Part shown: in pieces, positions 31,947 to 45,292 of the stretch
How the letters are laid out: each line of letters opens with the position of its first letter
Numbering within the stretch: position 1 is the stretch's first letter
Source of the DNA: Candidatus Acidiferrales bacterium
GTDB lineage: Bacteria; Acidobacteriota; Terriglobia; Acidiferrales; UBA7541
Reading direction: 5' to 3'
Assembly (NCBI GenBank): GCA_035602855.1
Contig: DATNLN010000042.1
Coordinates: 14,645 to 78,644, forward strand
DNA: 64,000 bases
Program-made: the position numbers and the translations under genes
The notes under the pieces: generated by a model
Told to the model about the DNA's origin: nothing
The model's input: only the letters and a program-made list of their open reading frames with translations
Database searches by the model: none

Positions 31947-32558
31947 ATGCGGTCACGCGGGAAAATATCGGAGAGTTTGTTGCTGGCGGTTGCGATCCTG
32001 TGCTTCATCGTGCCGGCCGGCGCGCGCGGCGATGCCACGCAGCACGCGCAAGAACACGTGCTGCGGCTCTACAACACGCACACGGGCGAACGGCTGGAAA
32101 TTGTGTTCCGGCGCGGGGAGCAGTACATTCCCGGCGCGCTGGCCAAACTGGATTATTTCCTGCGCGACCATAATACCGGCGACGTGCGCCATTTTGATCC
32201 GCGCTTGTACGATATTCTGGCCGATCTCACCGCGTCGGTAGGGCATCCCGGCGGAGAGATTGACATTGTTTGTGGCTACCGCACTGCTTCAACGAATGAA
32301 TCGTTGCGCGCGCACACCACCGGGGTCGCGAAGAACAGTTTGCACGTTCAGGCGGAAGCGATTGACTTGCGGATGCCTGGAGTTGACACTCTCACTTTGC
32401 GGCGGGCGGCGCTGGCATTGCGTCGCGGGGGCGTGGGCTACTACCCTCATTCTGATTTCATCCACGTAGATACGGGCCGCGTGCGGCAGTGGTGTTTTGA
32501 CTGTCCAGCGCGCCTGATCACTGGCAACCAACACCCTGCAACGAACCCCGGCAATTAG
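31947..32558 (+). CDS. DUF882 / peptidase M15A protein (YcbK/MepK-like)
   Basis: LYNTHTGE..., SLHVQAEAIDL, FIHVDTG metal-site motifs. Signal-like N-terminus. The track start is 31914. Confidence 0.8.
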   Translation: MRSRGKISESLLLAVAILCFIVPAGARGDATQHAQEHVLRLYNTHTGERLEIVFRRGEQYIPGALAKLDYFLRDHNTGDVRHFDPRLYDILADLTASVGHPGGEIDIVCGYRTASTNESLRAHTTGVAKNSLHVQAEAIDLRMPGVDTLTLRRAALALRRGGVGYYPHSDFIHVDTGRVRQWCFDCPARLITGNQHPATNPGN

Positions 32559-34300
32559 CCGGGGTACGGGTAGCCCTTATCGAGGACTTTCTCGAGCGTG
32601 GCGTCGTGCCCGTAGATGTCGTCGTAAAAGTGCACCGTGCCATCCTCGGTGACGATTACCGTGCCGTAAACAATCAAGATCGGAATCGGATGTGCCAGGT
32701 TTATCTGCTGCGTCGCGCTTCCATTCATGGCTGCGCGCACCCGATCGATGTTCCAGCCGCCCGGATTATCACGCAGCACCCAAACGGCCAGGTCCGCGGG
32801 TCTTTCCAGCCGAATACAGCCATGGCTGAAATCGCGTCGGCTCCTTGCGAAGAATTCCTGCTCGGGCGTGTCGTGCATGTAGATGTTGTAGCTGTTCGGA
32901 AAAATAAATTTCACCAGGCCGAGCGAATTTTTCGGACCGGGATTTTGCCGGATAAAGAGCTTACCCGCGCGCAACTGCTGCAGCACGTCGCTTGAGACTG
33001 GTCCGGAGGCGACGACCTGCTGGCGGCTGTCCACAACCGCGAATCCTTTTTTCTCCAGGTAGTCGGGGTCGCGCACGATTTTTGGGATAAATTCCGCTCT
33101 GGCGATGGAATATGGAACGCTCCAATACGGCCGGAATACCAGGTACTGCATGGTGTTCTCAAACGCCGGAGTGTTGTGGTCATACGCCTTGCCGACAACC
33201 ACGTTCATGGTCAGCGCGACTCTGAAATTTTGGTCGTAGGCGCGCAGGCGAAATTCCGGAATATTGGCGACGATCGGCGCGTCGTGCAGACCGATAGGCA
33301 ACCAGCGCCAGCGCTCGAGAATGAGCTGCATCTGGCGCACGCGTGTCGCGAGCGGCACGTTCAGGTCAGCCAACGTTTGCGGCGTGATTTTTCCGTCCGC
33401 AGTGCGGCCCAGACGGGTTTGAAAATGTTTTACAGCGTCCACGAGCGGAGCTTGATACACAGCGGCATCCGCCGGGACGTTCGCGTCAGAGGGAAGATCG
33501 CCCACCAAGCGGAGCAAACGAGCGAGCTGCGGGACGCCGGAATAGCTGTCGCCGGGAGCGATGGTTTTTCCAGTGGCGGGGAGGGGCGCGCCGTCGTAGT
33601 CCTTCGCATGCTGCAAATAGGCGTGCAGCGCCTGAATGGTGCGTTGGTAACCCGGGTACGGAGGCTCCACTTGCGCCAGAACTCCGGCGACGTCGGGTGC
33701 GTCCACTACATCCGTTTTCAGAAATTGCGGCAGATCGTATTTCTTACTCTGAATATCGAAACCGAAATCAAAATGTCTTGGATTGACCTTGCCGATGTGC
33801 AGGTCTGAGACATATCTCATCACACAGATAGTGAGCGCGGCGTCAAATTGCACGGCGTCCGCTTCGGAGGGTTGCGCTGCGGCCGGTTTGAGTTTCGCGA
33901 GGCGGTCGGTCCAACGCGGGCCGTCGTAATCTTCGGCGGACAAACCTTTTTGGTCGGCTTGCTGCAGGAGCGCGATGACCTGTTGCGCCTGCGTGGTAGG
34001 CTGCATGCCTCGGACCCAGGGCAGGGAATTGCCGTACAGGTCGTAGAATTCCTTCAGCAGCTTGCTGTAATCGCTGAAATCTGGCCAGCGCAGTTGCGCG
34101 AGGTTTCCGGAGTCGATCGCGGCACGCAATGCGGCTTGGCCTTCGGCAGTGAGCTGTTGGGGCGGCGCGGCGGAATTCGCAGAAGCTTGCGGGTGCGGGC
34201 GCGCGTTGGCGGTTAAGCCGATGTGATGGCCATAGAGCAGCGCGATTGCGCCGAGGGGCAGAATGAACGCCAGACTTTTCAGAATTCGCGAACGCTTCAT
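32555..34300 (-). CDS. L,D-transpeptidase with peptidoglycan-binding domain (YcbB/LdtD-like)
   Basis: YkuD catalytic motif FSHGCIRL. Signal peptide. Start ATG 34300 preceded by GGAGAG. Its stop overlaps the DUF882 stop. Confidence 0.85.
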   Translation of the reverse strand: MKRSRILKSLAFILPLGAIALLYGHHIGLTANARPHPQASANSAAPPQQLTAEGQAALRAAIDSGNLAQLRWPDFSDYSKLLKEFYDLYGNSLPWVRGMQPTTQAQQVIALLQQADQKGLSAEDYDGPRWTDRLAKLKPAAAQPSEADAVQFDAALTICVMRYVSDLHIGKVNPRHFDFGFDIQSKKYDLPQFLKTDVVDAPDVAGVLAQVEPPYPGYQRTIQALHAYLQHAKDYDGAPLPATGKTIAPGDSYSGVPQLARLLRLVGDLPSDANVPADAAVYQAPLVDAVKHFQTRLGRTADGKITPQTLADLNVPLATRVRQMQLILERWRWLPIGLHDAPIVANIPEFRLRAYDQNFRVALTMNVVVGKAYDHNTPAFENTMQYLVFRPYWSVPYSIARAEFIPKIVRDPDYLEKKGFAVVDSRQQVVASGPVSSDVLQQLRAGKLFIRQNPGPKNSLGLVKFIFPNSYNIYMHDTPEQEFFARSRRDFSHGCIRLERPADLAVWVLRDNPGGWNIDRVRAAMNGSATQQINLAHPIPILIVYGTVIVTEDGTVHFYDDIYGHDATLEKVLDKGYPYPG

Positions 34301-34573
34301 TCCATTTCTCTCCACTTCTTGGCAAGCCTCTAGGGCTGTCCAGCCGCAAATCAGATAGATGCGCGAGAATGGCTACCGGGTCAAATTATTTGCTCTTCCT
34401 CATTCTGGCTGAAGATGCGGTGTCTTCCGTCGCGTCTCCGCACGGGCGATGCGGATTCGACGGAGGCAGATTCTATAACATCTACGATGAAGTTGAACCT
34501 ACGGGCACGATGGTACAGGCGCAACGCGATGATTCCATACAGACTCTAAAGAGCAAGGGAAATCGGCCGCGCG

Positions 34574-35083
34574 CTACGACCCGCTGGATTGGGCTGATCT
34601 TTTCGTGGGGCAGGCGATGCCTCGTTTGGCGGCGAGTTCCGAGGCCCACAGCAGAATATCGAATAGACGAGCTCGTTCCAAATTGTCCAAGCCGCGCATG
34701 GGATGAACCAAGCCGGCGGCTTGCTGCGCGCTGGAAAGCAGAAAGCGGTCAATGGAGACGGCCGCGGCTTCGTCGGGATCGGCGAAGCGGTTCGCACTGC
34801 ATTCATTCAACCGTTCGTAGCAGCGCGCGATGAAATGGTCGACGCAGACATGTTTCAGCTCCAGGGAGCACATGGCCGGGCGTCCACAATTTCCCGTGTC
34901 ACAGCGAACCATAGCCTGCGCCAAGGATGGTTGATTTTGTTGCGAGTCCGATGTTTGCTTTTGATCCGGGAATTGCTGCGTGTCTTTGTTCATGGAATTC
35001 ATGGTTCCCAGGGCCTCGAATTGCGTGAGGGTGATGCTACCCACGCGGTTGATCCATTCGGCGTTTACGTTTCTTGTCAGCAC
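34574..35083 (-). CDS. hypothetical Cys-rich protein
   Basis: 169-aa ORF (GTG start). Q-rich N-terminal part, then CDTGNCGRPAMCSLELKHVCVDHFIARCYERLNEC. The start is uncertain. Confidence 0.45.
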   Translation of the reverse strand: MLTRNVNAEWINRVGSITLTQFEALGTMNSMNKDTQQFPDQKQTSDSQQNQPSLAQAMVRCDTGNCGRPAMCSLELKHVCVDHFIARCYERLNECSANRFADPDEAAAVSIDRFLLSSAQQAAGLVHPMRGLDNLERARLFDILLWASELAAKRGIACPTKRSAQSSGS

Positions 35084-35535
35084 ATGCGTGCATCAGACAA
35101 CTCCCTGGCGCCAGGAATCGCCTCGGCGGATTCGGGCAGTTCCGCTTCGTAGGTGTGGACTTTCACGCGGACGTCAACGAGCATGGCGACGAGTTTGCGC
35201 ACCGCGGGCGAATCTTCCCAGTGATTTTCGGTGGCCTGCGGCGCGGTGTCCCACAGGCTGAGCACGCGAATCAGGCGCGGCTCTTTGTGCGAGGTCAGCA
35301 CAAAGATGCCGGCGAATCCCGGTTGCCGCTTCAGTATCGCGGCGACCTCGCGGCGCATGCAATTTCGCAGATGCTGTTCTCTCCCTGGCTTGGCAACAAA
35401 TTCCACCGCACGTGCGTTCAAGTGAGCAACCTCCGTGTCTTGACTAGATCCCAAGAAGAGACGCGCGCGACGCGGGTCGAGGCTGCCAAGAACTTTCGCA
35501 GGCGCGTCCAATTCCAAGTAAGCGTGTGAACTCAT
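35077..35535 (-). CDS. hypothetical protein, ABM/Dabb-like ferredoxin fold (tentative)
   Basis: 152-aa ORF. Its stop overlaps the downstream GTG start by 7 nt. FVLTSHKEPRLIRVLSLWDT pattern resembles ABM domains. Confidence 0.5.
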   Translation of the reverse strand: MSSHAYLELDAPAKVLGSLDPRRARLFLGSSQDTEVAHLNARAVEFVAKPGREQHLRNCMRREVAAILKRQPGFAGIFVLTSHKEPRLIRVLSLWDTAPQATENHWEDSPAVRKLVAMLVDVRVKVHTYEAELPESAEAIPGARELSDARMC

Positions 35536-35585
35536 TTCAAGAATCCTCGCTTCCGCCCGAACGTGTCACGGGCGCAGATGGAGGA

Positions 35586-35630
35586 GGCGCGCTCCGGTGG
35601 GGTTCCCTGACCGTTAGGGCCGGAGCGCGC
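35586..35630. repeat. perfect 12-bp inverted repeat (GGCGCGCTCCGG ... CCGGAGCGCGCC) with 21-nt spacer
   Basis: Read directly. The spacer contains an additional CCCT/AGGG pair. It lies about 50 nt upstream of the minus-strand start at 35535. Confidence 0.6.
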
Positions 35631-35896
35631 CCGGGGGGATGGACATCGGCTTTACGCCATCGTCTGGACTGGGCCATCTGATTCACCAATCCGATCTCGG
35701 TACAAGTACGCATAGGTAGTGCGCTTGCGCGCCGAAACGTTTCATCTGCAAACGAAATATATTGCGGCGGCCGCAACGCGAATGAACTGAGGAAGAAATA
35801 GGATGTGCGCTGTGAGGAGGATTGCTTGCCTTGGGCCGGCGTTCGATTGCGCAGTTCGTCCACTGCGGGATATACTCGCTAACCTTCGAGGCGCGT

Positions 35897-36478
35897 GTGG
35901 AATTTTTCTCCTTTGATGAGGCCTACCTTAAACGGCTCCGGGACCGAGACTTCCCGACCGAGCAACATTTCGTTGCATATTTTCGAAAACTGCTGGTCAT
36001 TAAATTAAGGTCGCGGCTGCGCGGATCCGAGGCGGTAGAAGATATCGCGCAGGAGACGTTTCTGCGGGTGTTCAAGGCGATGAACTCGGAAACGGGGATC
36101 CGGCAGCCGGAGAGGCTTGGGGCATTCGTTAACTCCGTTTGCAACAATGTGTTGCAGGAATTCTATCGCTCGTCGAATCACGGAACGCAACTGAATGACG
36201 ATACGCCGGAGCCCGTCGACCAGGTACTCGATCTGGATGGGTTCCTGGTAAGCAAGCAGACCCGGGAACAGGTGAGGAAAGTGCTGGAGCAGCTTCCCGC
36301 AAAGGACCGGCAGCTGCTGCGCGCTATCTTCCTGGAAGAAAAGGAGAAAGACCAGGTGTGCCGGGAATTGGGCACGGATCGCGATTATCTGCGGGTGTTG
36401 CTGCATCGCGCCAAGGCCAACTTCCGCGTTTTCTACGAGAAGAACAGGGCGCAGGGGCCGCGGCCTGCGAAACAATAG
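35897..36478 (+). CDS. ECF (group IV) sigma-70 family sigma factor
   Basis: Region 2 DIAQETFLRVF and region 4 LPAKDRQLLRAIFLEEKEKDQVCRELG...LLHRAK. Start uncertain: GTG 35897 or TTG 35822. Confidence 0.8.
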   Translation: MEFFSFDEAYLKRLRDRDFPTEQHFVAYFRKLLVIKLRSRLRGSEAVEDIAQETFLRVFKAMNSETGIRQPERLGAFVNSVCNNVLQEFYRSSNHGTQLNDDTPEPVDQVLDLDGFLVSKQTREQVRKVLEQLPAKDRQLLRAIFLEEKEKDQVCRELGTDRDYLRVLLHRAKANFRVFYEKNRAQGPRPAKQ

Positions 36479-36532
36479 AGAACGGGATGAAACGATTTAG
36501 GGCCGGACGTCACTACTGGTAGGACGGAATAC

Positions 36533-37264
36533 ATGGAACATACGCAAGCTATCCAATTGAAAGCCGCTGAGCGGTACGTACTCGGAGAACTGCCGAGCGA
36601 CCTCCGCGAACAATACGAGGAACACTTCTTCAGCTGCGTAGAATGCGCCGAAGAGGTGAACCTGGCGGCGGCGTTCGTTGAAAATAGCCGGGCGGCTATG
36701 GGATCCGAGCCCGTTATGCCGCCCGTCCGTCTGCCGGTGACCGTGACGCAGCGTCCGGCTACGAGTGGCTGGCTGGGCGTGTTCTTGCGGCCGAGTTTTG
36801 CGGTGCCAGTGTTCGCGGCGCTGCTGCTGCTGGTCGCGTATCAGGAATTTTTGGTTATTCCGCGATGGAAGGGCGCGGCGACGCACTCCGTTAGCACGCT
36901 CGCGTCCGCCGCCCCACAAGCCCTCGCGTCGTTTTCTTTAATCACGGCGGATTCGCGCGGCGGGGAACCGTTGCTGGTTTCCGTTGCGCCAGGTCAACCT
37001 TTTAGTTTGTATTTTGATATTCCTCCGGACGCACATTACTCTTCGTATATCTGCGAATTGCAGAATGCTGCCGGCAAGGCGGAATTTTCCTTGAACATTT
37101 CCGCTGAACAGGCTAAGAATGCCGTGCAGCTTCTGATTCCTTCTTCAAGCTTGGGAACCGGGAAGCACGTGCTGATGTTGCGCGGACTTGGCACCCCGGA
37201 CGACGCGGCCAGCGGTGGGACCGAAGTAGCACGCTACCCATTCACACTCGTACACTCGCAGTAA
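36533..37264 (+). CDS. zf-HC2 (ZAS-type) single-pass anti-sigma factor
   Basis: YVLGEL...HFFSCVEC (HxxxCxxC), one TM (FAVPVFAALLLLVAYQEFLVI), about 130-aa extracytoplasmic C-terminal domain. Confidence 0.75.
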   Translation: MEHTQAIQLKAAERYVLGELPSDLREQYEEHFFSCVECAEEVNLAAAFVENSRAAMGSEPVMPPVRLPVTVTQRPATSGWLGVFLRPSFAVPVFAALLLLVAYQEFLVIPRWKGAATHSVSTLASAAPQALASFSLITADSRGGEPLLVSVAPGQPFSLYFDIPPDAHYSSYICELQNAAGKAEFSLNISAEQAKNAVQLLIPSSSLGTGKHVLMLRGLGTPDDAASGGTEVARYPFTLVHSQ

Positions 37265-37295
37265 TAATCCAATACTGATACAGGAGGCAAATCCG

Positions 37296-38123
37296 ATGGC
37301 GACCGACCCCATCAAGAAGACGTATATCCACACGGCGCATGGTTATGGCTTTAGCGCGCGCATTGACCGGCCGTTCGAACACTTGGTGGACGTGCACGCG
37401 GGAAGCACGCTGCCGACAACCGGCGGCTTCGAGACTTCGCGCACGGAGAATTTTCGGTTAAAGGAAATCATATCGTACAGGGCGGCATACTCGGTGGTTG
37501 GCTCCAGCCGCAACCCGAAGGACGATACCTATAATTCCTCGGTAACCGCGACGATCGAGGGGCTGAACATTCTGGACATGGTGACCGCGGACCGCATCGT
37601 CGCACGCGTTACCTCCAAGCAGCGTTTAGACGAAGAGGAGCCGACGATTCTTTCGATCGGCAGCCGCTTCGAAAACTTGCGGATTGCAGGCTGCCCGGTT
37701 CAGGTGGACCTGGACAACGAACTTTTCACTCGCCTGGGCACGTATGCATCTTTCAAGAAGGAATACACGGAGAACCAACAGTCCCGTGAAATGATGCAGG
37801 GGCGATTCCTATGGGGAAAACCGAAAGCGGACGTACCGGAATTTCTCCGGGAGAGGTATAACTGGTTCGCCAGCGATGACTTTCCGGAATCGAAGGGCAT
37901 CGTATTGTGTTCCTTGGTAAAGGACGTAAAGACCACTTGCTCGGAACTGCGCAGGTACGGAAACGTGATCGTGGTGCCGCACTTCGGCAAGATCTACCTG
38001 GCCGAATTCCAGTTGCAGCGCTACCAGCGCGAGCTTGCCATGCTGCGTGTGGAACTGGGTTCAACGGTCGGTGGTTCGGGAAGCGGACCCGGAGGTCAAG
38101 GCGGTGGTTCGACGTATCCTTGA
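37296..38123 (+). CDS. hypothetical protein, no recognisable domain, no signal peptide
   Basis: GGAGG 8 nt upstream of the ATG. Strong third-codon-position G/C bias up to about 38055. The Gly-rich tail (GSTVGGSGSGPGGQGGGSTYP) has poor coding bias. Confidence 0.65.
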   Translation: MATDPIKKTYIHTAHGYGFSARIDRPFEHLVDVHAGSTLPTTGGFETSRTENFRLKEIISYRAAYSVVGSSRNPKDDTYNSSVTATIEGLNILDMVTADRIVARVTSKQRLDEEEPTILSIGSRFENLRIAGCPVQVDLDNELFTRLGTYASFKKEYTENQQSREMMQGRFLWGKPKADVPEFLRERYNWFASDDFPESKGIVLCSLVKDVKTTCSELRRYGNVIVVPHFGKIYLAEFQLQRYQRELAMLRVELGSTVGGSGSGPGGQGGGSTYP

Positions 38124-40585
38124 GGTGTGTGGTTTTCGCGATTGAGCTTTTTGGGATCTGTGGATGCCACAGGTCCAGCCAACTTGAGCCGTCCGCGCGA
38201 TTTCAAAACGCGCGCAGCAAGTTTGAACACGGCGACCATGTGGGAGCATCCAGTGATGCTGACGCGGCTTATCACGAGTACGCCGTCAGCAAGCCTGAAT
38301 GGGCGTGGCGGTTTCGAGTCCTGGAAGGTGAGGTGCTGGTTTCCCGCGGGCTAAGCGCCGATTCTCTCGCATTGCTCGACGCCCCTATTCCTGCCACTCT
38401 GGCCCATAGTGAAGTTGCAGTTCGAAAGGAAATGTTTGAAGGGTTAGCAGATTGTAGCCTGCGCCGTTTCGATGAAGCCGACCGCCGCCTGTCGAATGCA
38501 GATCAATTAGCCGAAGCCTACCAACAAATCGCGCTCGCGGAAGTATTTCTCAGTCGCGGCACGCTCATATTCCTTCGGGGCGATTATTCCGCCGCGCAGT
38601 CTACTTTCCGCCAAGCCCTTCAACTCGCCCAGCGCGACCAACAGCCTTTCATCGAAGCAAAAGCTCTAGGAAGTCTCGGTCTCGTCGCAATGTATGAAGA
38701 GCGATACGACGAGTCGATTGACTGGTACACGAGGTCGCTCGACGTCTCACGCCGTCTCGGAGCCCAAGCCGTTACCGCGAAGACTCTTGGAAATATGGGC
38801 TGGTGCTACTACCGCATGGGCGATGACGCGAAAGCTCTTTCGCTGTCTAGCGACGCGAAAGAGGCCGCCACGCACTTGGGGGTAAACAAAGATGAAATGC
38901 TTTGGCTTCGAAACATCGGAATCATTGAGGACAATCAGGGTTCTTACACCGCTGCAACGCGCGATTACGAGGAAGCTCTGGACCTTGCCAACAAGATGCA
39001 GAATGGAGCCGAAGCCGCGACGTGTCTGAACAATCTGGCAATCGTCAAGCTGAAGAGACACGACTATGACCGAGCCGAGCAATACAACAGTCAAGCGCTA
39101 GCGCTAAAACGAGCCGAAAACGACCGGGTGTCAGAACTTTATTCTCTGATCACAGAGGCGTACATAGCGGCGGGCAACGGTAATTTCGAGCAGGCGAAAT
39201 CGAATTTGCAGAACGTGATCGCGGACAAGAATTCGAATCACTATTTGCAATGGCAAGCAGATGCCGGTCTTGCATATGTATACGTGAGCAGCAAACAGCC
39301 GGCGCGGGCGGCAGAGCATTTTCGAAAGGCGATGGCGACTATCGAGACAGCAAGATCCTCGCTACAGCATGAAGAGTTTCGTCTGTCGTTCGTGTCCGGT
39401 GTCGTTGGCTTTTACGACGACTACGTCAGTTTCCTGGTGTCGCAAGGAAAAATAGAGGAAGCGCTGGAAGTTGCGGAATTCAGCCACGCGCGAACTTTGG
39501 CGGAAGGGCTTGGCATCAATGCCTCTTCCATGCGTTTTCCGATCAGGAATTTCAAACCGCGCCAAATCGCCAAGGAGTCGAAGGCCATGGCCCTTGACTA
39601 TTGGCTCGGAGCGGAACATTCCTACCTGTGGGTAATTAGGTCGGATCGAGTGGAGCTTTTCACACTGCCTCGGGCCGCGGAAATTGATCCGCTGGTGCAG
39701 TCTTACCGGCAGGCGCTGCTCGGGTCGCGCGACGTGCTGGAGACGCAGAATGCGGCGGGGCGCAAACTTTATGATTTGCTGGTGGCGCCAGCAGCGAAAA
39801 TGATACCGCGGGGGGCGCGGGTCATAATATTGCCGGATGGCAGCCTCTACGGCCTGAATTTCGAGACTTTGCTGGCCCCGTCGCCGCGATTGCATTATTG
39901 GATTGAGGATGTGGATGTTTCATACGCCAATTCGTTGACGGTGCTGGCGGCTGGAGCGGCGCGGCGTCCGGCGACAGCGAGGAAGCTTTTGCTGATGGGC
40001 GATCCTGTGTCGCCCGACGCGGAATTTCCGAAATTGCCGCAGGCGGCGGCGGAAATGACTGGCATCGAGAATTATTTCCCTGCGGCCGCGCGTACGGTTT
40101 TTTCGGGCGCGGAAGCAACACCCGATTCATACTTGAAGAGCCAGCCCGCCGCGTTTTCCTACATTCATTTTGTGGCGCACGGCACAGCCAGCCGTACCAG
40201 TCCGCTCGATTCGGCGGTGATTCTCTCCAGGCAAGGTGACGACTACAAGCTCTACGCCCGCGACATTATTCAGCATCCTTTGCACGCCGACCTGGTGACG
40301 ATTTCGGCGTGCCACGGCGAGGGCGTGCGCACGTATTCAGGGGAGGGCTTGGTCGGGCTTTCGTGGGCGTTCTTGCACGCGGGGGCGCATGAGGTGATCG
40401 CGGCACTCTGGGAAGTGAATGATAATTCCACGCCGCAGCTGATGGATCATCTGTATTCCGAAATCGGCAGGGGCGCGGCGCCGGATGCGGCTCTGCATGA
40501 CGCGAAGTTGGCGCTTCTCCGCTCAGGCGGCGTTTACCGGAGGCCATTTTATTGGGCGCCTTTCGAGTTGTATCGCGGTTCGTAG
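38120..40585 (+). CDS. TPR-repeat + CHAT (caspase-like) protease
   Basis: Multiple TPR units (e.g. LGNMGWCYYRMGDDAKAL, LNNLAIVKLKRHDYDRAEQY). C-terminal CHAT domain with His (IHFVAHG) and Cys (TISACHG) dyad. Start unresolved: TTG 38120 or GTG 38129. The track start 37907 is rejected on codon bias. Confidence 0.8.
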   Translation: MRCVVFAIELFGICGCHRSSQLEPSARFQNARSKFEHGDHVGASSDADAAYHEYAVSKPEWAWRFRVLEGEVLVSRGLSADSLALLDAPIPATLAHSEVAVRKEMFEGLADCSLRRFDEADRRLSNADQLAEAYQQIALAEVFLSRGTLIFLRGDYSAAQSTFRQALQLAQRDQQPFIEAKALGSLGLVAMYEERYDESIDWYTRSLDVSRRLGAQAVTAKTLGNMGWCYYRMGDDAKALSLSSDAKEAATHLGVNKDEMLWLRNIGIIEDNQGSYTAATRDYEEALDLANKMQNGAEAATCLNNLAIVKLKRHDYDRAEQYNSQALALKRAENDRVSELYSLITEAYIAAGNGNFEQAKSNLQNVIADKNSNHYLQWQADAGLAYVYVSSKQPARAAEHFRKAMATIETARSSLQHEEFRLSFVSGVVGFYDDYVSFLVSQGKIEEALEVAEFSHARTLAEGLGINASSMRFPIRNFKPRQIAKESKAMALDYWLGAEHSYLWVIRSDRVELFTLPRAAEIDPLVQSYRQALLGSRDVLETQNAAGRKLYDLLVAPAAKMIPRGARVIILPDGSLYGLNFETLLAPSPRLHYWIEDVDVSYANSLTVLAAGAARRPATARKLLLMGDPVSPDAEFPKLPQAAAEMTGIENYFPAAARTVFSGAEATPDSYLKSQPAAFSYIHFVAHGTASRTSPLDSAVILSRQGDDYKLYARDIIQHPLHADLVTISACHGEGVRTYSGEGLVGLSWAFLHAGAHEVIAALWEVNDNSTPQLMDHLYSEIGRGAAPDAALHDAKLALLRSGGVYRRPFYWAPFELYRGS

Positions 40586-40611: not shown

Positions 40612-42360
40612 CTACGATTTGCCTGGCGCACGCGCGAGAAACATATATGCGACGAGCAGGATCGCGAAAATCGCGGAGACGATGGCTCCTGCAACGCGGT
40701 CCCAGGTGCTGGTGAATTGCACAGCGACCTGATGAGCGCCTGCGGGAAGCGCTACCAGCATCTGTGTGGTTTCTGGGGCTGCGCCGGGCGAGACACTCTT
40801 GCCGTCAACCTGTACTTTCCATCCTGGATAATTCAGCAGCCGTAGCGCCGGCGTTATCGGGTTGACGTCTTGCGCTGTAAAGCGCTTCTCGATTGCGGTC
40901 CAACGCTCGATGCGTACCGTGTTCTCGGGCACGGGTTTGAACACGTGTGTTTCGTTATCAAACTGCTGAATGCGCGGTGCTGGCTTGCCGATCATTTCGC
41001 CCATAGGATCGGCGCCGGGTAGTTCGTAGCGATCGCAGCCGAGCGGTTGATACTCATCCGTACCTTCATAGCCGCGGCCGGATTGAATTCCCTTGGTGAG
41101 AACGGGAATGTCTTCGCTGTCCCACCAACCGTCGTTTACCAGGGCGGCGGCGAGGGTCGTCAGAGCGATCGCGATAACCAGCCCGCCGAGCCAAGGCCGT
41201 TTCGCGCGTCCGATGACCGCGGCGAGAAAAAATGCGAACACGAAATCGAGCACGCCCAGCCAGCGCCAGGGGAACTGCACGAATTCCAGCTTGGGCAGCC
41301 AGCGCCACAAAAACAGGCTGGGGGAAAACATCAGCAACACTGCGGCGGAGCCCAGCCAGAGGAGCATCCACCAAATTTGCGGGAATTCGCGGCGGCGACG
41401 CGCGACCAGAACCGCCGCGATGCCGGTGACGAGCATTTCGCCCATCGCCACGCCGGAAACTTTCCAATTGAAGATCAGAAATTCGGGGTCAATCGCGTGG
41501 GTGAACAGAAAATTTTGGCTCGGGCTTAGCAGATCGGCGAGAGCTTGGTGAATCTGTACCCAGCGCTGTTCATAAGCCGCGGGAAAAATGTAAAACGCAG
41601 CGAGGCCAAAGCTTGCAGCCATCGAGACACCGCCGAGAAGCAACGGTGTGATACTGCGACGCAAAATGGACGTGACGAAAAACAGCAGCATCAACGAGTA
41701 GGTGGCCAGCACCGCGGCGGGCGCGTTCGCCAGCCAGATCAGCGCAAACGGAACGGCCAGAAATTGCAGGCCGTGCCAGCCCTCGCGCAGCAGACGCACT
41801 GCGCCCCAGAATGCCAGCGGAAGCAAGGCACTCGCTAGCAGCTCGGCGAAGTCGGCGCGGTAATAAACGATGATCAAGTGATACGGATTCGCTGCGTAGA
41901 GAACCGCGGCGGCGGTGGCTTCGCGCTGCGAAAGGCATTCGCGCGCGAATCGCCACATCGAATATCCGGCCAGCAGCAGCACCAGCCAGATGAACGCGCT
42001 CGGCGCCATTCTCCACGGGAGCAGGGAACCGAGAGTTGCTCCGAGCATCCAGGAGCCCGGCGGATAAAAAATAAAGCGCGGCTCTCCGTAGCCCCAGTTG
42101 GCCCATTCCGCCCAGCGCGGGAAGAAAGTGCCTTGGCGCCATTGCCCCGCGACGTCCAGCCAGGACGCCAGGTGAAACTGAAAATCGTGGCCCGACGCAT
42201 TGCCCAGAAAAAGCATGGGCGCGATCACGGCCGTCGCGGCAACGGCGACAAGCAGCAGAGCCACGCGCGGCGAAGCTGCGCTTGTGCGCGAAGCAGGCTG
42301 CGATGAAAGTTCGGTGGTTACGCTCGAGGGAATTGTTTTCGTCCCATTGGGAATTGCCAC
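40612..42360 (-). CDS. polytopic membrane protein, PTPS-related/glycosyltransferase-like family
   Basis: GHDFQFHLASWLDVAGQWRQGTFFPRWAEWANWGYGEPRFIFYPPG plus more than 10 TM segments and a C-terminal soluble domain. Start uncertain (GTG 42360 proposed; the track extends to 42561). Confidence 0.65.
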   Translation of the reverse strand: MAIPNGTKTIPSSVTTELSSQPASRTSAASPRVALLLVAVAATAVIAPMLFLGNASGHDFQFHLASWLDVAGQWRQGTFFPRWAEWANWGYGEPRFIFYPPGSWMLGATLGSLLPWRMAPSAFIWLVLLLAGYSMWRFARECLSQREATAAAVLYAANPYHLIIVYYRADFAELLASALLPLAFWGAVRLLREGWHGLQFLAVPFALIWLANAPAAVLATYSLMLLFFVTSILRRSITPLLLGGVSMAASFGLAAFYIFPAAYEQRWVQIHQALADLLSPSQNFLFTHAIDPEFLIFNWKVSGVAMGEMLVTGIAAVLVARRRREFPQIWWMLLWLGSAAVLLMFSPSLFLWRWLPKLEFVQFPWRWLGVLDFVFAFFLAAVIGRAKRPWLGGLVIAIALTTLAAALVNDGWWDSEDIPVLTKGIQSGRGYEGTDEYQPLGCDRYELPGADPMGEMIGKPAPRIQQFDNETHVFKPVPENTVRIERWTAIEKRFTAQDVNPITPALRLLNYPGWKVQVDGKSVSPGAAPETTQMLVALPAGAHQVAVQFTSTWDRVAGAIVSAIFAILLVAYMFLARAPGKS

Positions 42361-42616
42361 ATCCGACAGCTGGATACATTCGCGAACCGAAAGAGAATAG
42401 CGAATCGCGCGCGATCGGTGCCACTGGCGCCCTCGCGATTGCAATCCGTGGCGCACCGTGCTCCGTACCAGAGTATGCGTGCATATGGCCCGCTTGCCAA
42501 TACGCTGGCGCAACGAGTAGAGTTCTTCGGGATTGCGCGCCGCCGATAGACTCTGTAGCACATCTCCCAGGCACGAAACCCGGTATCATGACTGTGCCGA
42601 ATATGGCCGATAAGGG

Positions 42617-45292
42617 ATGAGTATGGAACCCACGTTGACAGCCGAAGAGCAGAGGCTCCGGGCCAACAGCGAGCGCGTGGCGCACTGGAAACGATGGGGC
42701 CCTTATCTGGCGGAGCGGCAATGGGGCACGGTGCGCGAGGATTACAGCGCGAACGGCGACGCCTGGGATTATTTTCCGCACGATCATGCGCGCTCCCGCG
42801 CGTATCGCTGGGGAGAAGACGGCATCGCGGGATTTTGCGATCGCCACCAGCACATTTGCCTGAGCCTGGCGCTGTGGAATGAAAAAGATCGCATCCTGAA
42901 AGAACGGCTTTTCGGACTGACCAACAAGGAAGGCAATCACGGCGAGGACGTCAAAGAGTATTACTACTATCTGGACGCGACACCGACCAGCTCGTATCTG
43001 CAATTCCTCTACAAATATCCGCACGCCGCATACCCCTACGACCAGCTACGCGAAGAAAACGCCAAGCGCACGCGCCACCAGCCGGAGTACGAACTGATTG
43101 ATAGCGGAGTCCTCGCGGAGAATCGCTACTTCGATGTGTTCGTGGAATACGCGAAGGCTACATTCGAAGATATCGTGGTGCGCATTACGGCGTGGAATCG
43201 CGGACCTCAAGCCACGCGTCTGCATCTGCTGCCCTCGTTGTGGTTTCGCAATCGTTGGGACTGGGGCGATGCCTACAACACGCCGCAGGTGGCGCGTGTG
43301 CCGGGATTCCAGGGCGGCGAGTTGCTTGAACTGACGGAATTTCATTACGGACAACGCTGGCTGGCGATCGAAGGAGCGCCGGAGCCGCTCTTTACAGACA
43401 ACGAAACGAACATGGAACGGCTGTTCGGCCAGAAGAGCAAGACGCCTTATGTGAAAGATGCGTTCCACCGCTACCTGATCAATGGCGAACGCGGTGCTGT
43501 GAATCCTGCGATGACCGGAACGAAAGCGGCGGCGCACTTTTCCTCGGAAATCGCGCCCGGCCAGAGTTGGACGATTCGTCTGCGTCTGACGGACCAGAAT
43601 CTCGCGGAGAATCACACGCCGGCGAGTCAACTTTTTGGGCCGGCGTTCGATGCCGTCTTCGATCAGCGTAAAAAAGAAGCGGACGAATTTTACGAAAAGC
43701 GCATTGACGCAAACCTGAGCGAGGATGCGCGCCGCGTGCAGCGCCAGGCTTTTGCCGGCCTGCTCTGGTGCAAGCAAAGCTATCACTACGACGTGCGGCG
43801 CTGGCTGGAAGGCGATTCCACGCAGCCGAAACCCGATGCCAGCCGCGAGGATGGCCGCAACCATGAGTGGACGCACCTGTACAATTCCGATGTGATTTCC
43901 ATGCCGGACACGTGGGAATACCCCTGGTATGCGTCGTGGGATCTGGCGTTCCACTGCGTTTCGATGGCGCTGATTGACCCGGAATTCGCGAAGCAGCAGC
44001 TGATTCTGTTTCATCGCGAGTGGTACATGAATCCCAGCGGGCAGGTTCCGGCTTACGAATGGAATTTGTCCGACGTGAACCCGCCCGTATTGGCCTGGGC
44101 GACTTGGCGCGTTTATAAGATCGCGGGACGCGTGGAAGGCAAGGAGGATCGCAACTTCCTGGTGCGGATGTTTCACAAATTGCTGCTGAATTTTACCTGG
44201 TGGGTGAATCGCAAAGACCCCGAAGGGAAGAACGTATTTGAGGGTGGCTTTTTGGGATTGGATAACATCGGCGTGTTCGATCGTTCCTCGCCGCTGGGAC
44301 CTGGAAATTTTATCGAGCAGTCCGACGGCACCAGTTGGATGGCGATGTTTTGCCTGGACATGCTGGCGATGTCCATGGAGTTGGCGCACGACGACCCGGC
44401 GTACGAGGATGTAGCCAGCAAATTCTTCGAGCACTTTGTGTACATCGCGCAGGCCATGAACGACATCGGTGGCACAGGAATCGGCCTGTGGGACGAAGCG
44501 GATGGTTTTTATTACGACGTGCTTCATTTGGGAAGCACCACTCATGTGCCGATGAAGGTTCGCTCGATGGTGGGACTGATCCCGCTGTTTGCGGTGGAGG
44601 TTTTCGAGCCGGAAGATTTAGCGCGGCTGCCGAGTTTTCGCAAGCGCATGGATTGGTTTCTGGCGCACAATCCGGACGTTGCGGACCACGTGGATATGAG
44701 CGAGCGCACCGACAAAGGCGCGCGCTTGATGCTCAGCATCGCCAATCGCGCAAAGCTAGAGCGGATTTACAAATATGTTCTGGATGAAAATGAATTTTTG
44801 TCGCAGCACGGAGTGCGGGCGCTGTCGAAATATCACAAGGATCATCCATTCGTTTTGCATGTGAACGGCCTTTCGCAGGCCGTGGACTACGAGCCTGCCG
44901 AATCTACCGGGGAGTTATTCGGCGGCAACTCCAACTGGCGCGGGCCGGTGTGGTTCCCGCTGAATTTCCTGATGATCGAAGCGTTGCAGCGCGTGCATCA
45001 CTACTATGGCGACGACTTCAAGGTGGAATGTCCCACGGGGTCGGGCCGGAAAATGACGCTCTGGGACGTGGGGCGCGAAGTTTCCCGTCGGCTCTCGCAC
45101 ATTTTTCTGCAGAAGGATGGCCGCAGGGCTGTGTACGGCGACGTCGAATTATTTCAGAAGGATCCCTACTGGCGCGATTTGCTTTTGTTTTACGAGTATT
45201 TCAACGGCGACAACGGCGCCGGTTTGGGCGCAAGCCATCAGACGGGATGGACGGCGCTGGTGGCCAAATTAATCGAGCAGAGCGGCGAATAG
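42617..45292 (+). CDS. large (alpha/alpha)6-type glycoside hydrolase (GH63 / MGH1-like glucosidase)
   Basis: 891-aa cytoplasmic [18 protein letters not shown] and [10 protein letters not shown] regions resemble the glucosidase family as I recall it. Confidence 0.6.

What the first reader, a model, noticed from the sequence alone, without database searches (positions are those of the whole stretch)
35897..40585. ECF sigma / anti-sigma / orphan protein / TPR-CHAT protease module resembling the type III-E CRISPR accessory set, but with no CRISPR-Cas
Four co-directional, tightly spaced genes lie here. They are an ECF sigma factor, a zf-HC2 single-pass anti-sigma factor, a 275-aa protein with no recognisable domain, and a roughly 820-aa TPR-CHAT protein. 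The CHAT caspase-like dyad is intact (IHFVAHG ... TISACHG). Established knowledge: in type III-E (Cas7-11/gRAMP) systems the TPR-CHAT protease Csx29 cleaves Csx30, which together with Csx31 controls an ECF sigma factor (RpoE). So a TPR-CHAT protease wired to sigma-factor release has precedent. Here the same parts list (sigma factor, sigma-binding inhibitor, small unknown protein, TPR-CHAT) occurs with no cas7-11, no other cas gene and no CRISPR array in 64 kb. The inference is a stand-alone, protease-gated ECF switch whose input is not an RNA-guided effector. By eye the locus is lower in GC than its neighbours, which is compatible with horizontal acquisition. Topology is unresolved. The CHAT protein may carry a signal or lipoprotein-like N-terminus, which would make it an extracytoplasmic site-1-type protease acting on the anti-sigma C-terminal domain.
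Basis: partly seen in the sequence, partly recalled or inferred. Interest (0 to 1): 0.8.

Follow-up and report, generated by a model that had tools for sequence, protein, structure and literature searches.

The report
Sigma switch with exported CHAT protease
A six-gene cassette found in hundreds of soil-bacterial genomes joins a stress-type sigma factor and its membrane-bound inhibitor to a caspase-like protease that is exported to the cell envelope. It looks like a split version of the Myxococcus DdvA anti-sigma factor rather than a CRISPR accessory set, and the protease gene appears to start inside the preceding gene in another reading frame.

Summary
The four genes are real, and their order was conserved in every related locus examined (86 fetched, about 80 distinct; Acidobacteriota, Vulcanimicrobiota/Eremiobacterota and others).

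- The 275-aa "orphan" belongs to Pfam DUF8256 / NCBIfam choice-of-anchor P, a family of more than 1000 clusters at 50% identity.
- The unit has six genes. It includes a divergent pair: an ABM-domain protein and a Cys/His-rich protein.
- TPR-CHAT carries a conserved lipoprotein signal (hydrophobic stretch plus lipobox Cys), so it is extracytoplasmic.
- Its best solved structural match is the periplasmic TPR-CHAT of the anti-sigma factor DdvA, ahead of Csx29.
- DUF8256 shows no sequence or fold similarity to Csx30.

New points:
- An ECF-type promoter motif, TGAAACG-N16-CACTA, occurs exactly twice in 64 kb. One copy lies before the anti-sigma gene and one before the divergent pair. Both are conserved across loci.
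- The CHAT frame stays open for about 72 codons inside the DUF8256 gene in the -1 frame. Codon bias there creates an SD plus a TTG/GTG start, which points to a conserved long out-of-frame overlap.

Best model: a split DdvA-like, protease-gated ECF switch acting in the periplasm. The role of DUF8256 is unknown. The low-GC/HGT idea is not supported.

The parts
34574..35083 (-). up2: a Cys/His-rich cytoplasmic protein of unknown family. The longest ORF is 169 aa. Conservation starts near Met28, so the start is probably at about 35002. It is the second gene of the divergent pair.
   Evidence: It lies divergent and adjacent in about 70 of 86 loci. Conserved C-x4-C...C-x2-H-x4-C residues, no TM segment. 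About 140 homologous clusters, none with a Pfam domain or a name. No significant Pfam hit.
35077..35535 (-). up1: a 152-aa ABM (antibiotic biosynthesis monooxygenase-like) domain protein. It is the first gene of the divergent pair.
   Evidence: Pfam ABM E=8.8e-8, 32.7 bits against cutoff 23.1. Conserved position and strand across loci.
35586..35631 (-). Conserved hairpin in the roughly 180-nt leader of up1: GGCGCGCUCCGG, a 22-nt loop, then CCGGAGCGCGCC.
   Evidence: The arms differ between clades with compensatory changes. There are 20 distinct arm sequences in 66 loci. No Rfam match.
35717..35744 (-). ECF-type promoter motif B, TGAAACG-N16-CACTA, oriented towards up1-up2.
   Evidence: It is one of only two perfect matches in 64 kb, where 0.01 are expected. 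It is present at the equivalent place in 68 of 85 loci.
35847..35876 (+). Sigma-70-like promoter TTGCGC-N18-TATACT just upstream of the ECF sigma gene.
   Evidence: It is a conserved block in the alignment of 69 intergenic regions. TTGnnn-N16-19-TAnAnT ends 20-26 nt before the sigma start in 75 of 79 loci.
35897..36478 (+). ECF (group IV) sigma factor, 193 aa, GTG start.
   Evidence: Sigma70_r2 plus r4_2. TIGR02937 66 bits against cutoff 42.9. It is the most conserved protein of the module, at 46-92% identity across loci.
36488..36515 (+). ECF-type promoter motif A, TGAAACG-N16-CACTA, in the sigma/anti-sigma spacer. It starts about 45 nt before the anti-sigma ATG.
   Evidence: It is the second of the two perfect matches in the window. 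It sits at the same offset from the anti-sigma start codon in 56 of 85 loci with the strict pattern.
36533..37264 (+). Single-pass ZAS-type anti-sigma factor, 243 aa. It has an N-terminal HxxxCxxC domain, a TM segment at about residues 85-109, and an extracytoplasmic C-terminal domain of about 135 aa.
   Evidence: zf-HC2 scores 17.8 bits, below the 22.2 cutoff. The H31/C35/C38 motif and the hydropathy peak are conserved. There is a weak hit to M. tuberculosis RslA, 3hug_B.
37296..38123 (+). DUF8256 protein, 275 aa. It has no signal peptide, a beta-rich core, and a low-confidence Gly-rich tail.
   Evidence: PF26784 is precomputed on all homologues. NCBIfam choice-of-anchor P matches residues 14-138 at 37.3 bits against cutoff 27. 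1089 clusters at 50% identity. AF2 pLDDT 70, pTM 0.71. No PDB or BFVD fold match.
37907..40585 (+). TPR-CHAT lipoprotein precursor, long form of 892 aa from GTG 37907. Alternative starts are TTG 37937 and TTG 38120.
   Evidence: ORF. CHAT E=1e-51 plus TPR families. AF2 pLDDT 86, pTM 0.80. The best PDB fold match is DdvA, 8rw5/8rot.
37907..38123 (+). Out-of-frame (-1) overlap of the CHAT ORF with the last 72 codons of DUF8256.
   Evidence: -1 frame stops run at 0.0013 per codon here against 0.033 upstream. 72 of 79 loci have none, against 6 of 79 for the +1 frame. An NTG codon sits at the codon 204/205 junction in 71 of 79 loci. T is enriched before Cys205 and Cys215, and G201 is GGR.
38126..38167 (+). 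Signal-peptide h-region CVVFAIELFGICG followed by the lipobox Cys (38165-38167).
   Evidence: A hydrophobic stretch plus [LVI..][AST..][GAS]C is conserved in 68 of 82 distinct junctions, with the Cys usually 14-15 codons after the DUF8256 stop. Lineages with their own ATG have textbook signals such as MRVAFALVLSFLTAC.
38189..39511 (+). TPR solenoid, about 20 helices, mature residues 24-464.
   Evidence: TPR_12, TPR_1, TPR_MalT and related families. AF2 secondary structure.
39557..40582 (+). CHAT caspase-like domain. Catalytic His687 is at 40178-40180 and Cys731 at 40310-40312.
   Evidence: Pfam CHAT matches residues 547-819. H687 and C731 are invariant in 27 homologues at 47-74% identity.

Best explanation
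This is a conserved six-gene ECF sigma signalling module that works like a split DdvS/DdvA system.

Proposed layout and mechanism:
- The sigma gene is transcribed from its own sigma-70-type promoter.
- Its product is held at the inner membrane by a single-pass ZAS anti-sigma factor.
- A separately encoded TPR-CHAT caspase-like protease is exported and lipid-anchored in the periplasm.
- There its TPR solenoid receives an unknown envelope signal, and the His-Cys dyad cleaves the anti-sigma factor's periplasmic domain (site 1).
- Intramembrane (RseP-type) and cytoplasmic proteolysis then free the sigma factor.
- Free sigma transcribes from TGAAACG-N16-CACTA promoters. One drives anti-sigma-DUF8256-CHAT (feedback and resetting). 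The other drives the divergent ABM-domain and Cys/His-rich proteins (output).
- The CHAT gene is translated from a TTG/GTG with an embedded SD about 72 codons inside the DUF8256 gene in the -1 frame. That stretch supplies a long, sequence-unconstrained n-region ahead of the lipoprotein signal and ties expression of the two genes together.

Shown: the gene content and its conservation, the lipoprotein signal, the intact dyad, the fold similarity to DdvA, the two promoter-like motifs, and the open -1 frame with start-codon and SD bias.

Inferred: that CHAT cleaves the anti-sigma factor, that this sigma uses these motifs, the exact start codon, and any role for DUF8256.
For: - Gene order is conserved in all 86 loci, and still holds where DUF8256 identity falls to 27-33%.
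- The ZAS motif and TM segment are present in the anti-sigma factor.
- The lipoprotein signal is conserved.
- The dyad is invariant.
- The Foldseek top hits are the DdvA periplasmic TPR-CHAT (8rw5 E=3e-16, 8rot E=2.6e-15, about 870 aligned columns). These rank ahead of Csx29 and separase.
- DdvA is a ZAS domain, a TM segment and a periplasmic TPR-CHAT in one chain, and its authors propose the CHAT as a site-1 protease preceding RseP (PMC11506125). That is a domain-fusion argument that the separate anti-sigma and TPR-CHAT here act together.
- The promoter motif occurs twice in 64 kb against 0.01 expected. Both copies have conserved position and orientation in 56 and 68 of 85 loci.
Against: - No cleavage has been shown, here or for DdvA itself.
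- The CHAT domain is only remotely related to DdvA by sequence (phmmer E=0.16, the same as for Csx29).
- The sigma factor is not detectably close to DdvS, and its promoter motif differs from DdvS's GTAA-N16-CGT.
- CHAT and DUF8256 lie downstream of an ECF-type promoter, so they could be outputs rather than regulators.
- DUF8256 has no signal peptide, yet elsewhere it is fused to a CHAT-like domain in a cytoplasmic protein. That fits poorly with the two proteins sitting in different compartments.
- A signal peptide with an n-region of 60-70 residues is unusual.
- P-values for codon bias ignore phylogenetic non-independence.
Confidence: 0.5

Rival explanations
1. DUF8256 and the TPR-CHAT lipoprotein are outputs of the regulon, not part of the switch. 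The ZAS anti-sigma factor senses the signal itself (for example thiol or redox stress, as with RsrA-type ZAS proteins), or it is cleaved by an unlinked site-1 protease. The induced envelope protease then processes some other periplasmic substrate.
For: - The ECF-type promoter lies directly upstream of anti-sigma-DUF8256-CHAT, so all three are predicted to be sigma-dependent.
- The HxxxCxxC zinc motif is intact.
- An ABM-domain protein that could relate to redox or quinone chemistry is co-regulated.
Against: - ECF operons commonly autoregulate their own regulators, so the promoter position does not discriminate.
- The DdvA fusion of a ZAS domain with a periplasmic TPR-CHAT argues for a direct functional link.
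- The four genes are never separated in about 90 loci.
Confidence: 0.22
2. This is a type III-E-like cytoplasmic switch without Cas7-11. CHAT would cleave the 275-aa protein (Csx30/Csx31-like), which would help hold the sigma factor.
For: - A sigma factor, a small unknown protein and a TPR-CHAT co-occur.
- Csx29 is among the significant fold matches (E=1.8e-12).
- DUF8256 is fused to a CHAT-like domain in one lineage, so a DUF8256-CHAT interaction is plausible.
- Csx30 inhibits CASP-sigma and is cleaved by Csx29 (PMC10028731).
Against: - The conserved lipoprotein signal places CHAT outside the cytoplasm.
- The Csx29 family model scores 24 bits against a cutoff of 300.
- DUF8256 has no sequence or fold match to Csx30 chains in the PDB.
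- A canonical membrane anti-sigma factor is present.
- DdvA outranks Csx29 structurally.
Confidence: 0.06
3. Programmed -1 ribosomal frameshifting near the end of DUF8256 makes a single transmembrane protein. It would run DUF8256 (cytoplasmic), TM helix, TPR-CHAT (periplasmic), an architecture parallel to DdvA with DUF8256 as the cytoplasmic domain.
For: - The CHAT frame is -1 relative to DUF8256 in nearly all loci.
- The hydrophobic segment begins exactly at the DUF8256 stop.
- In 37 of 79 loci there is no canonical start within 59 codons upstream.
- A DUF8256-CHAT-like fusion exists.
Against: - Canonical X_XXY_YYZ heptamers occur in only 4 of 79 loci and are not positionally conserved.
- The -1 frame opens sharply just before codon 204, where an NTG codon and an SD-like GGR codon are enriched. 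This is what internal initiation predicts, not frameshifting.
- The stop at the start of the h-region is also expected passively. NTN codons in the -1 frame force T-initial codons in frame 0, so frame 0 soon hits a stop.
- Lineages with their own ATG make an ordinary lipoprotein signal.
Confidence: 0.07
4. This is an anti-phage or conflict system. As with DdvS/DdvA, the switch would turn on defence genes, or DUF8256 would be a toxic effector released by CHAT.
For: - DdvS/DdvA controls a CBASS plus type III-B island.
- A DUF8256-CHAT-like fusion sits next to conjugation genes (VirB3/VirB4/TrbC/SSB).
- CHAT is the most diverged protein of the module among syntenic genomes (64-74% identity).
Against: - No PADLOC hit beyond generic TPR.
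- The neighbours are housekeeping genes and vary between lineages.
- The only motif-bearing targets nearby are the module itself and the ABM/Cys-rich pair.
- The chromosomal position is stable and syntenic.
Confidence: 0.07

Closest known systems
[quoted passage not shown]
   Same: - An ECF sigma held by an N-terminal zinc-binding anti-sigma domain with one TM helix.
- An extracytoplasmic TPR-CHAT with a His-Cys dyad.
- DdvA is the best solved structural match of the CHAT model.
- The proposed logic is the same: CHAT as site-1 protease, then RseP.
   Different: - Here the anti-sigma factor and TPR-CHAT are separate genes, and CHAT is a lipoprotein rather than part of the anti-sigma chain.
- DUF8256 is interposed between them and overlaps CHAT.
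- The sigma factor is not detectably related to DdvS.
- The promoter motif is TGAAACG-N16-CACTA rather than GTAA-N16-CGT.
- No CBASS or CRISPR regulon is nearby.
- It occurs in Acidobacteriota and Vulcanimicrobiota rather than Myxococcota.
Type III-E Craspase accessory set: Csx29 (TPR-CHAT), Csx30, Csx31 and CASP-sigma (PMC10028731)
   Same: A TPR-CHAT protease is genetically linked to an ECF-type sigma factor and to small uncharacterised proteins. Proteolysis is thought to relieve sigma inhibition.
   Different: - Csx29 is cytoplasmic and is activated by Cas7-11 and target RNA. Here there is no Cas7-11, and the protease has an export signal.
- The Csx29 HMM scores far below its cutoff.
- DUF8256 is unrelated to Csx30 by sequence and fold.
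- The inhibitor here is a classical membrane ZAS anti-sigma factor.
RseA/DegS/RseP-type regulated intramembrane proteolysis of ECF anti-sigma factors (established knowledge; summarised in PMC10028731 and PMC11506125)
   Same: A single-pass anti-sigma factor whose periplasmic domain is the presumed target of a signal-activated periplasmic site-1 protease.
   Different: The candidate site-1 enzyme is a caspase-fold Cys protease with a TPR sensor, encoded in the operon, rather than a PDZ serine protease encoded elsewhere.
Pfam PF26784 (DUF8256) / NCBIfam NF040603 (choice-of-anchor P)
   Same: The 275-aa protein is a full-length member of DUF8256. Its residues 14-138 pass the choice-of-anchor P cutoff.
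   Different: By their name, choice-of-anchor families are surface proteins with sorting signals (my own knowledge of the naming convention). This protein has no signal peptide and no C-terminal anchor. No paper in the library mentions either family.

Membership tests
ECF (group IV) sigma-70 factors | [quoted passage not shown] | tested here: met
   TIGR02937 scores 66.1 bits against cutoff 42.9. Sigma70_r4_2 scores 26.8 against 25.7. Sigma70_r2 scores 22.3, just under 24.
ZAS-type single-pass anti-sigma factors | An N-terminal HxxxCxxC zinc-binding anti-sigma domain followed by one TM helix. | tested here: met
   The H31-x3-C35-x2-C38 motif is conserved across 80 sequences, and there is one hydropathy peak at residues 85-109. 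The Pfam zf-HC2 score is below its gathering cutoff (17.8 against 22.2), so membership rests on the motif, the position next to the sigma gene, and the topology.
ZAS-type single-pass anti-sigma factors | Binds and inhibits the cognate sigma factor. | not testable with these tools
   This needs a two-hybrid or pull-down assay, or a complex prediction, which is not on hand.
CHAT (PF12770) caspase-like proteases | CHAT domain HMM above cutoff, with an intact His-Cys dyad. | tested here: met
   176.5 bits against cutoff 24. H687 and C731 are invariant in 27 homologues.
Csx29 (type III-E TPR-CHAT, NF041237) | Family HMM above cutoff. | tested here: not met
   24.3 bits against cutoff 300, matching the CHAT core only.
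Csx29 (type III-E TPR-CHAT, NF041237) | Encoded next to cas7-11/gRAMP and a CRISPR array. | tested here: not met
   No array-like repeats were found. The ORFs above 900 aa are a tRNA synthetase and an AddA-like helicase-nuclease. Related loci have housekeeping neighbours. Not every small ORF was screened.
Csx30 | Sequence or fold similarity of the 275-aa protein to Csx30. | tested here: not met
   phmmer against all PDB chains at E<=10 gives no Csx30 hit. Foldseek against the PDB, which holds the Csx30-containing entry 8eey, gives no match below E=0.1. The model is only of moderate confidence (pLDDT 70).
Csx31 | Sequence or fold similarity of the 275-aa protein to Csx31. | not testable with these tools
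   I found no Csx31 model or structure in the libraries at hand. PADLOC and NCBIfam gave no such hit.
DdvA-type anti-sigma factors | ZAS domain, TM helix and periplasmic TPR-CHAT in a single polypeptide. | tested here: not met
   The anti-sigma factor (243 aa) and TPR-CHAT are separate ORFs with DUF8256 between them in every locus.
DdvA-type anti-sigma factors | Fold of the extracytoplasmic TPR-CHAT. | tested here: met
   8rw5 and 8rot are the top Foldseek hits, at E=3e-16 and 2.6e-15 with TM 0.44-0.48.
Bacterial lipoproteins (SPII substrates) | A positively charged n-region, a hydrophobic h-region, and a lipobox [LVI][ASTVI][GAS]C. | tested here: met
   This was judged by my own pattern and hydropathy heuristic, not by a trained predictor. 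68 of 82 junctions pass, with examples such as VSGC, LAGC, VAGC and ICGC. Actual lipidation is not testable here.
DUF8256 (PF26784) | Family HMM hit. | tested here: met
   The precomputed PF26784 assignment is on all 120 listed homologues and on the identical family members in related loci. The local Pfam copy lacks this model.
Programmed -1 frameshift genes | A conserved slippery heptamer in the overlap. | tested here: not met
   4 of 79 loci have one, at no conserved position.

The most novel reading that the evidence does not exclude
A phylum-spanning ECF module in which a periplasmic, lipid-anchored caspase-fold protease is the trans-acting site-1 protease of a ZAS anti-sigma factor. This would be a naturally split DdvA, with protease and substrate as separate polypeptides. 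The protease gene would be overprinted on the last 72 or so codons of the gene for DUF8256, a protein of new fold, and that overlap would have been kept for a very long time. Under this reading DUF8256 is a dedicated cytoplasmic partner of CHAT-type proteases.
Probability: 0.3. Interest if true: 0.75.

Novelty: new variant of a known kind. Interest (0 to 1): 0.62.

Why it matters
- DdvA is described by its authors as the only characterised anti-sigma factor with a TPR-CHAT domain. Its proposed self-cleavage has not been demonstrated because protease and substrate are one chain and the signal is unknown (PMC11506125).
- A widespread split version makes the idea directly testable. One can co-express the lipoprotein (wild type or C731A) with the tagged anti-sigma factor and read out two well-defined promoters.
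- It extends caspase-fold proteases in sigma control beyond CRISPR-linked and myxobacterial cases, into abundant soil phyla.
- It gives a first functional context to DUF8256 and to an unnamed Cys/His-rich family.
- It offers a rare, statistically clear case of a conserved long out-of-frame gene overlap in bacteria. Gene callers currently annotate this overlap inconsistently, with CHAT lengths from 656 to 908 aa.

Tried and rejected
- **Csx30/Csx31 homology of the 275-aa protein.** PDB sequence search, Foldseek against the PDB and against BFVD found nothing below E=0.1.
- **Defence-system assignment.** PADLOC gave only a generic TPR hit.
- **Frameshifting.** Slippery heptamers are absent, and P-site re-pairing at the last sense codon is poor by inspection of the junctions.
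- **Dual-coding constraint.** Synonymous diversity is not reduced in the overlap. The -1 product is therefore constrained only against stop codons, which fits a cleaved signal-peptide n-region.
- **Horizontal acquisition.** The GC dip is within the window's range, and the flanks are syntenic.
- **Known RNA in the long intergenic region.** The only Rfam match is a sub-threshold chance hit inside the anti-sigma coding sequence. A global RNAalifold over all 66 leaders gave no consensus structure; the hairpin was found only by arm search.
- **ECF group assignment.** The Casas-Pastor 2021 main text does not mention CHAT, and no supplement is held. No paper mentions DUF8256 or choice-of-anchor P.
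- **Sequence-only PDB searches with the CHAT protein or its profile.** These are swamped by TPR hits. The CHAT domain alone hits DdvA and Csx29 equally weakly.
- **Intrinsic terminators and the generic sigma-70 scan.** Both are at chance level.
- **Relaxed motif search for more regulon members in the window.** Hits are at chance level.

Full report
**Observation.** The window carries four co-directional ORFs where the finding says.
- An ECF sigma factor lies at 35897-36478. It matches Sigma70_r2/r4_2, and TIGR02937 scores 66 bits against a cutoff of 43.
- A 243-aa protein lies at 36533-37264. It has H31-x3-C35-x2-C38 and one hydrophobic span at about residues 85-109.
- A 275-aa ORF lies at 37296-38123.
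- A TPR-CHAT ORF ends at 40585. CHAT scores E=1e-51, and H687 and C731 are invariant in 27 homologues.
- Cross-locus conservation upstream of the sigma gene stops at GTG 35897, so that codon is the start rather than the longer TTG 35822.

**The 'orphan' is not an orphan.** The 275-aa protein has 710 hits in the 90%-clustered database, all carrying PF26784 (DUF8256). It has 1089 clusters at 50% identity. Residues 14-138 pass the NCBIfam 'choice-of-anchor P' cutoff, at 37.3 bits against 27. The local Pfam copy lacks PF26784, which explains the empty result. The protein has no signal peptide. Its AF2 model (pLDDT 70, pTM 0.71) is beta-rich and has no significant match in the PDB or BFVD. It has no sequence match to any PDB chain, Csx30 included. 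No paper in the library mentions either family name.

**Neighbourhood.**
- A pattern scan of one genome per species gave 309 loci that encode a relative.
- In all 86 loci fetched (about 80 distinct), sigma, anti-sigma, DUF8256 and TPR-CHAT occur in that order on one strand wherever the contig is long enough.
- The record titles name mostly Acidobacteriota (Acidoferrum/Acidiferrales, Terriglobia, Bryobacterales). They also include Baltobacteraceae (Vulcanimicrobiota) and single MAGs labelled Binatia, Limnocylindrales, Dormiibacterota and Verrucomicrobiia. Some of these bins may be wrong.
- The order persists where DUF8256 identity falls to 27-33%.
- About 70 loci also keep two divergent upstream genes. 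In the window these are a 152-aa ABM-domain protein (35077-35535) and a Cys/His-rich protein (34574-35083). The latter has about 140 homologous clusters, no Pfam domain and no name.
- The conserved unit therefore has six genes. The flanking genes vary between lineages.

**Topology.**
- In nearly every locus a hydrophobic stretch ending in a lipobox-like Cys follows the DUF8256 stop codon in the CHAT frame. Examples are VSGC, LAGC, VAGC, IGAC, and ICGC in the window.
- My heuristic finds this in 68 of 82 distinct junctions, with the Cys typically 14-15 codons after the stop.
- Lineages in which CHAT has its own ATG show textbook lipoprotein signals, such as MRVAFALVLSFLTAC and MARRFHEAIWALCSTAVLLCAC.
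- TPR-CHAT is therefore an exported, probably lipid-anchored protein.
- The anti-sigma factor must have its zinc domain in the cytoplasm, which places its C-terminal domain of about 135 aa outside.

**An unexpected overlap.** The CHAT frame is -1 relative to DUF8256 in nearly all loci. In 37 of 79 loci the nearest ATG/GTG/TTG upstream of the h-region lies at least 59 codons inside DUF8256. The following evidence bears on where translation starts.
- The -1 frame has 0.0013 stops per codon over the last 80 codons of DUF8256, against 0.033 earlier in the gene. 72 of 79 loci have none, against 6 of 79 for the +1 frame.
- The open frame begins at or before codon 200 in 76 of 79 loci. An NTG codon sits at the codon 204/205 junction in 71 of 79 loci and at 214/215 in 65 of 79.
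- The base before the Cys205 and Cys215 codons is T in 61% of loci (background 18%) and C in 13-14% (background 36.5%). At the control Cys133 it is C in 51%.
- Gly201 is GGA or GGG in 69 of 77 loci (background 42%), which gives an SD-like GGAG/GGGA 6-9 nt upstream of the NTG.
- Loci that lack the long open frame (L068, L076) keep Cys205 but with the background-preferred C before it.
- Synonymous diversity is not reduced in the overlap. The -1 product is therefore constrained only against stop codons, as expected for a cleaved signal-peptide n-region.
- Slippery heptamers are essentially absent, at 4 of 79 loci.
- I conclude with about 70% confidence that CHAT is translated from inside DUF8256. 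In the window that start is GTG 37907, giving an 892-aa precursor.
- The Gly-rich tail of DUF8256 reads as Arg-rich in the -1 frame. Its stop falls where NTN codons begin in the -1 frame, so both features may be by-products of the overlap. This last point is inference.
- The P-values ignore the relatedness of the sequences.

**Promoters.** The sigma/up1 spacer has a conserved length of about 330-365 nt and contains conserved blocks.
- The motif TGAAACG-N16-CACTA occurs exactly twice in the 64 kb, where 0.01 are expected.
- One copy is on the minus strand at 35717-35744, pointing at up1-up2.
- The other is on the plus strand at 36488-36515, starting about 45 nt before the anti-sigma ATG.
- The strict pattern recurs at the same places in 68 and 56 of 85 loci. 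It also follows the up genes where they have been displaced.
- Two-mismatch variants elsewhere in the window are at chance level.
- The sigma gene itself is preceded by a conserved sigma-70-like TTGCGC-N18-TATACT element. This is found in 75 of 79 loci, 20-26 nt before the start codon.
- I infer that sigma is made constitutively and, once freed, induces anti-sigma-DUF8256-CHAT and the ABM/Cys-rich pair.
- The up1 leader also holds a hairpin whose arms covary between clades. It has no Rfam match.

**Comparison with known systems.**
- The AF2 model of TPR-CHAT (pLDDT 86, pTM 0.80) matches DdvA best, the transmembrane anti-sigma factor of M. xanthus: 8rw5 at E=3e-16 and 8rot at E=2.6e-15.
- Csx29 follows (8eey_B, 1.8e-12), then separase.
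- DdvA is a ZAS domain, a TM helix and a periplasmic TPR-CHAT in one chain. Its authors propose CHAT-mediated cleavage followed by RseP, and they call it the only characterised anti-sigma factor of this type (PMC11506125).
- The present module has the same parts split into an anti-sigma gene and a lipoprotein gene.
- It is not an orthologue of the ddv system. By sequence the CHAT domain hits DdvA and Csx29 equally weakly, at E about 0.16. The sigma factor has no close PDB relative. DdvS promoters are GTAA-N16-CGT.
- The type III-E analogy fails on several points. The Csx29 HMM scores 24 bits against a cutoff of 300. Csx29 is cytoplasmic and acts on Csx30 (PMC10028731). DUF8256 is unrelated to Csx30.

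**DUF8256 and CHAT.**
- One representative, P0135 (889 aa), fuses DUF8256 to a C-terminal region with a sub-threshold CHAT match, at E=0.0095.
- Its YFYCHGE and INACHS motifs align with the window's IHFVAHGT and ISACHG.
- It has no TM segment and no TPR, and it sits beside conjugation genes.
- Other architectures (P0220, P0254) have no CHAT nearby.
- DUF8256 is thus repeatedly, but not exclusively, tied to CHAT-type proteases. Why a cytoplasmic protein is coupled to an exported protease remains unexplained.

**Context.**
- No CRISPR-like array was found.
- The large ORFs tested are housekeeping genes, among them a class I tRNA synthetase, IlvD, a TPP enzyme, a thiolase and an AddA-like helicase.
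- YkuD-[module]-PTPS-GH63 synteny holds in the 13-17 nearest genomes.
- The GC of 37-40 kb (0.544-0.564) lies within the window's range. Recent horizontal acquisition is therefore not supported.

**Verdict.** The main interpretation, a III-E-like set, is not supported.
- I rate the split-DdvA-like switch at 0.5.
- I rate 'CHAT and DUF8256 are outputs, not regulators' at 0.22.
- Frameshift fusion, a III-E-like cytoplasmic switch and a defence system each rate about 0.06-0.07.
- The finding is a new variant of a known kind. Its value lies in experimental tractability, in its wide distribution in soil phyla, and in the conserved long gene overlap.

Noticed in passing
window 35586-35631 (RNA on the minus strand), within the up1 leader 35536-35716: There is a conserved 12-bp hairpin about 53 nt before the up1 start. 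Its arm sequences differ between clades with compensatory changes, giving 20 distinct arm sequences in 66 loci. A second hairpin (CGGAUUGGG...CCCAAUCCG) lies near the 5' end in the Acidoferrum clade. There is no Rfam match. It could be a cis-regulatory leader.
   Followed up: partly
L087 8001-10670 (protein P0135): This 889-aa protein fuses DUF8256 to a sub-threshold CHAT-like C-terminus with aligned His/Cys motifs. It has no TM segment and no TPR. It lies beside VirB3/VirB4/TrbC/SSB genes, which suggests a mobile element.
   Followed up: partly
L010 and L016 (same MAG, DATFZY01); L060 and L062 (same MAG, CAVTOS01): Some genomes carry two copies of the module. Identities to the window are also mosaic. 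In L007, DUF8256 is 95% identical but the anti-sigma factor only 72%. In L025 the anti-sigma factor is 88% but DUF8256 only 62%. This hints at paralogy or recombination within the module.
   Followed up: no
window 38120-40585 compared with the flanks 32555-34315 and 40612-45292: Among the syntenic nearest genomes, TPR-CHAT is the most diverged protein at 64-74% identity. By comparison GH63 is 86-94%, PTPS 77-85%, YkuD 78-87% and sigma 86-92%. The sensor/protease may be evolving faster.
   Followed up: no
L055, L061, L068, L069, L076 (about 370-760 nt upstream of the sigma start, plus strand): A divergent Terriglobia clade lacks the divergent up1/up2 pair. It carries the TGAAACG-N16-CACTA motif upstream of the sigma gene on the same strand, which suggests an autoregulated arrangement. 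In this clade CHAT has its own start codon and only a short overlap.
   Followed up: no
proteins listed: Public gene calls for orthologous TPR-CHAT proteins range from 656 to 908 aa. Callers pick different starts around the overlap, and many calls omit the signal peptide.
   Followed up: partly
window 36672-36753 (+): There is a weak Rfam hit to Chloroflexi-1 sRNA (22.8 bits against a gathering score of 80, E=0.32) inside the anti-sigma coding sequence. I treat it as chance.
   Followed up: no
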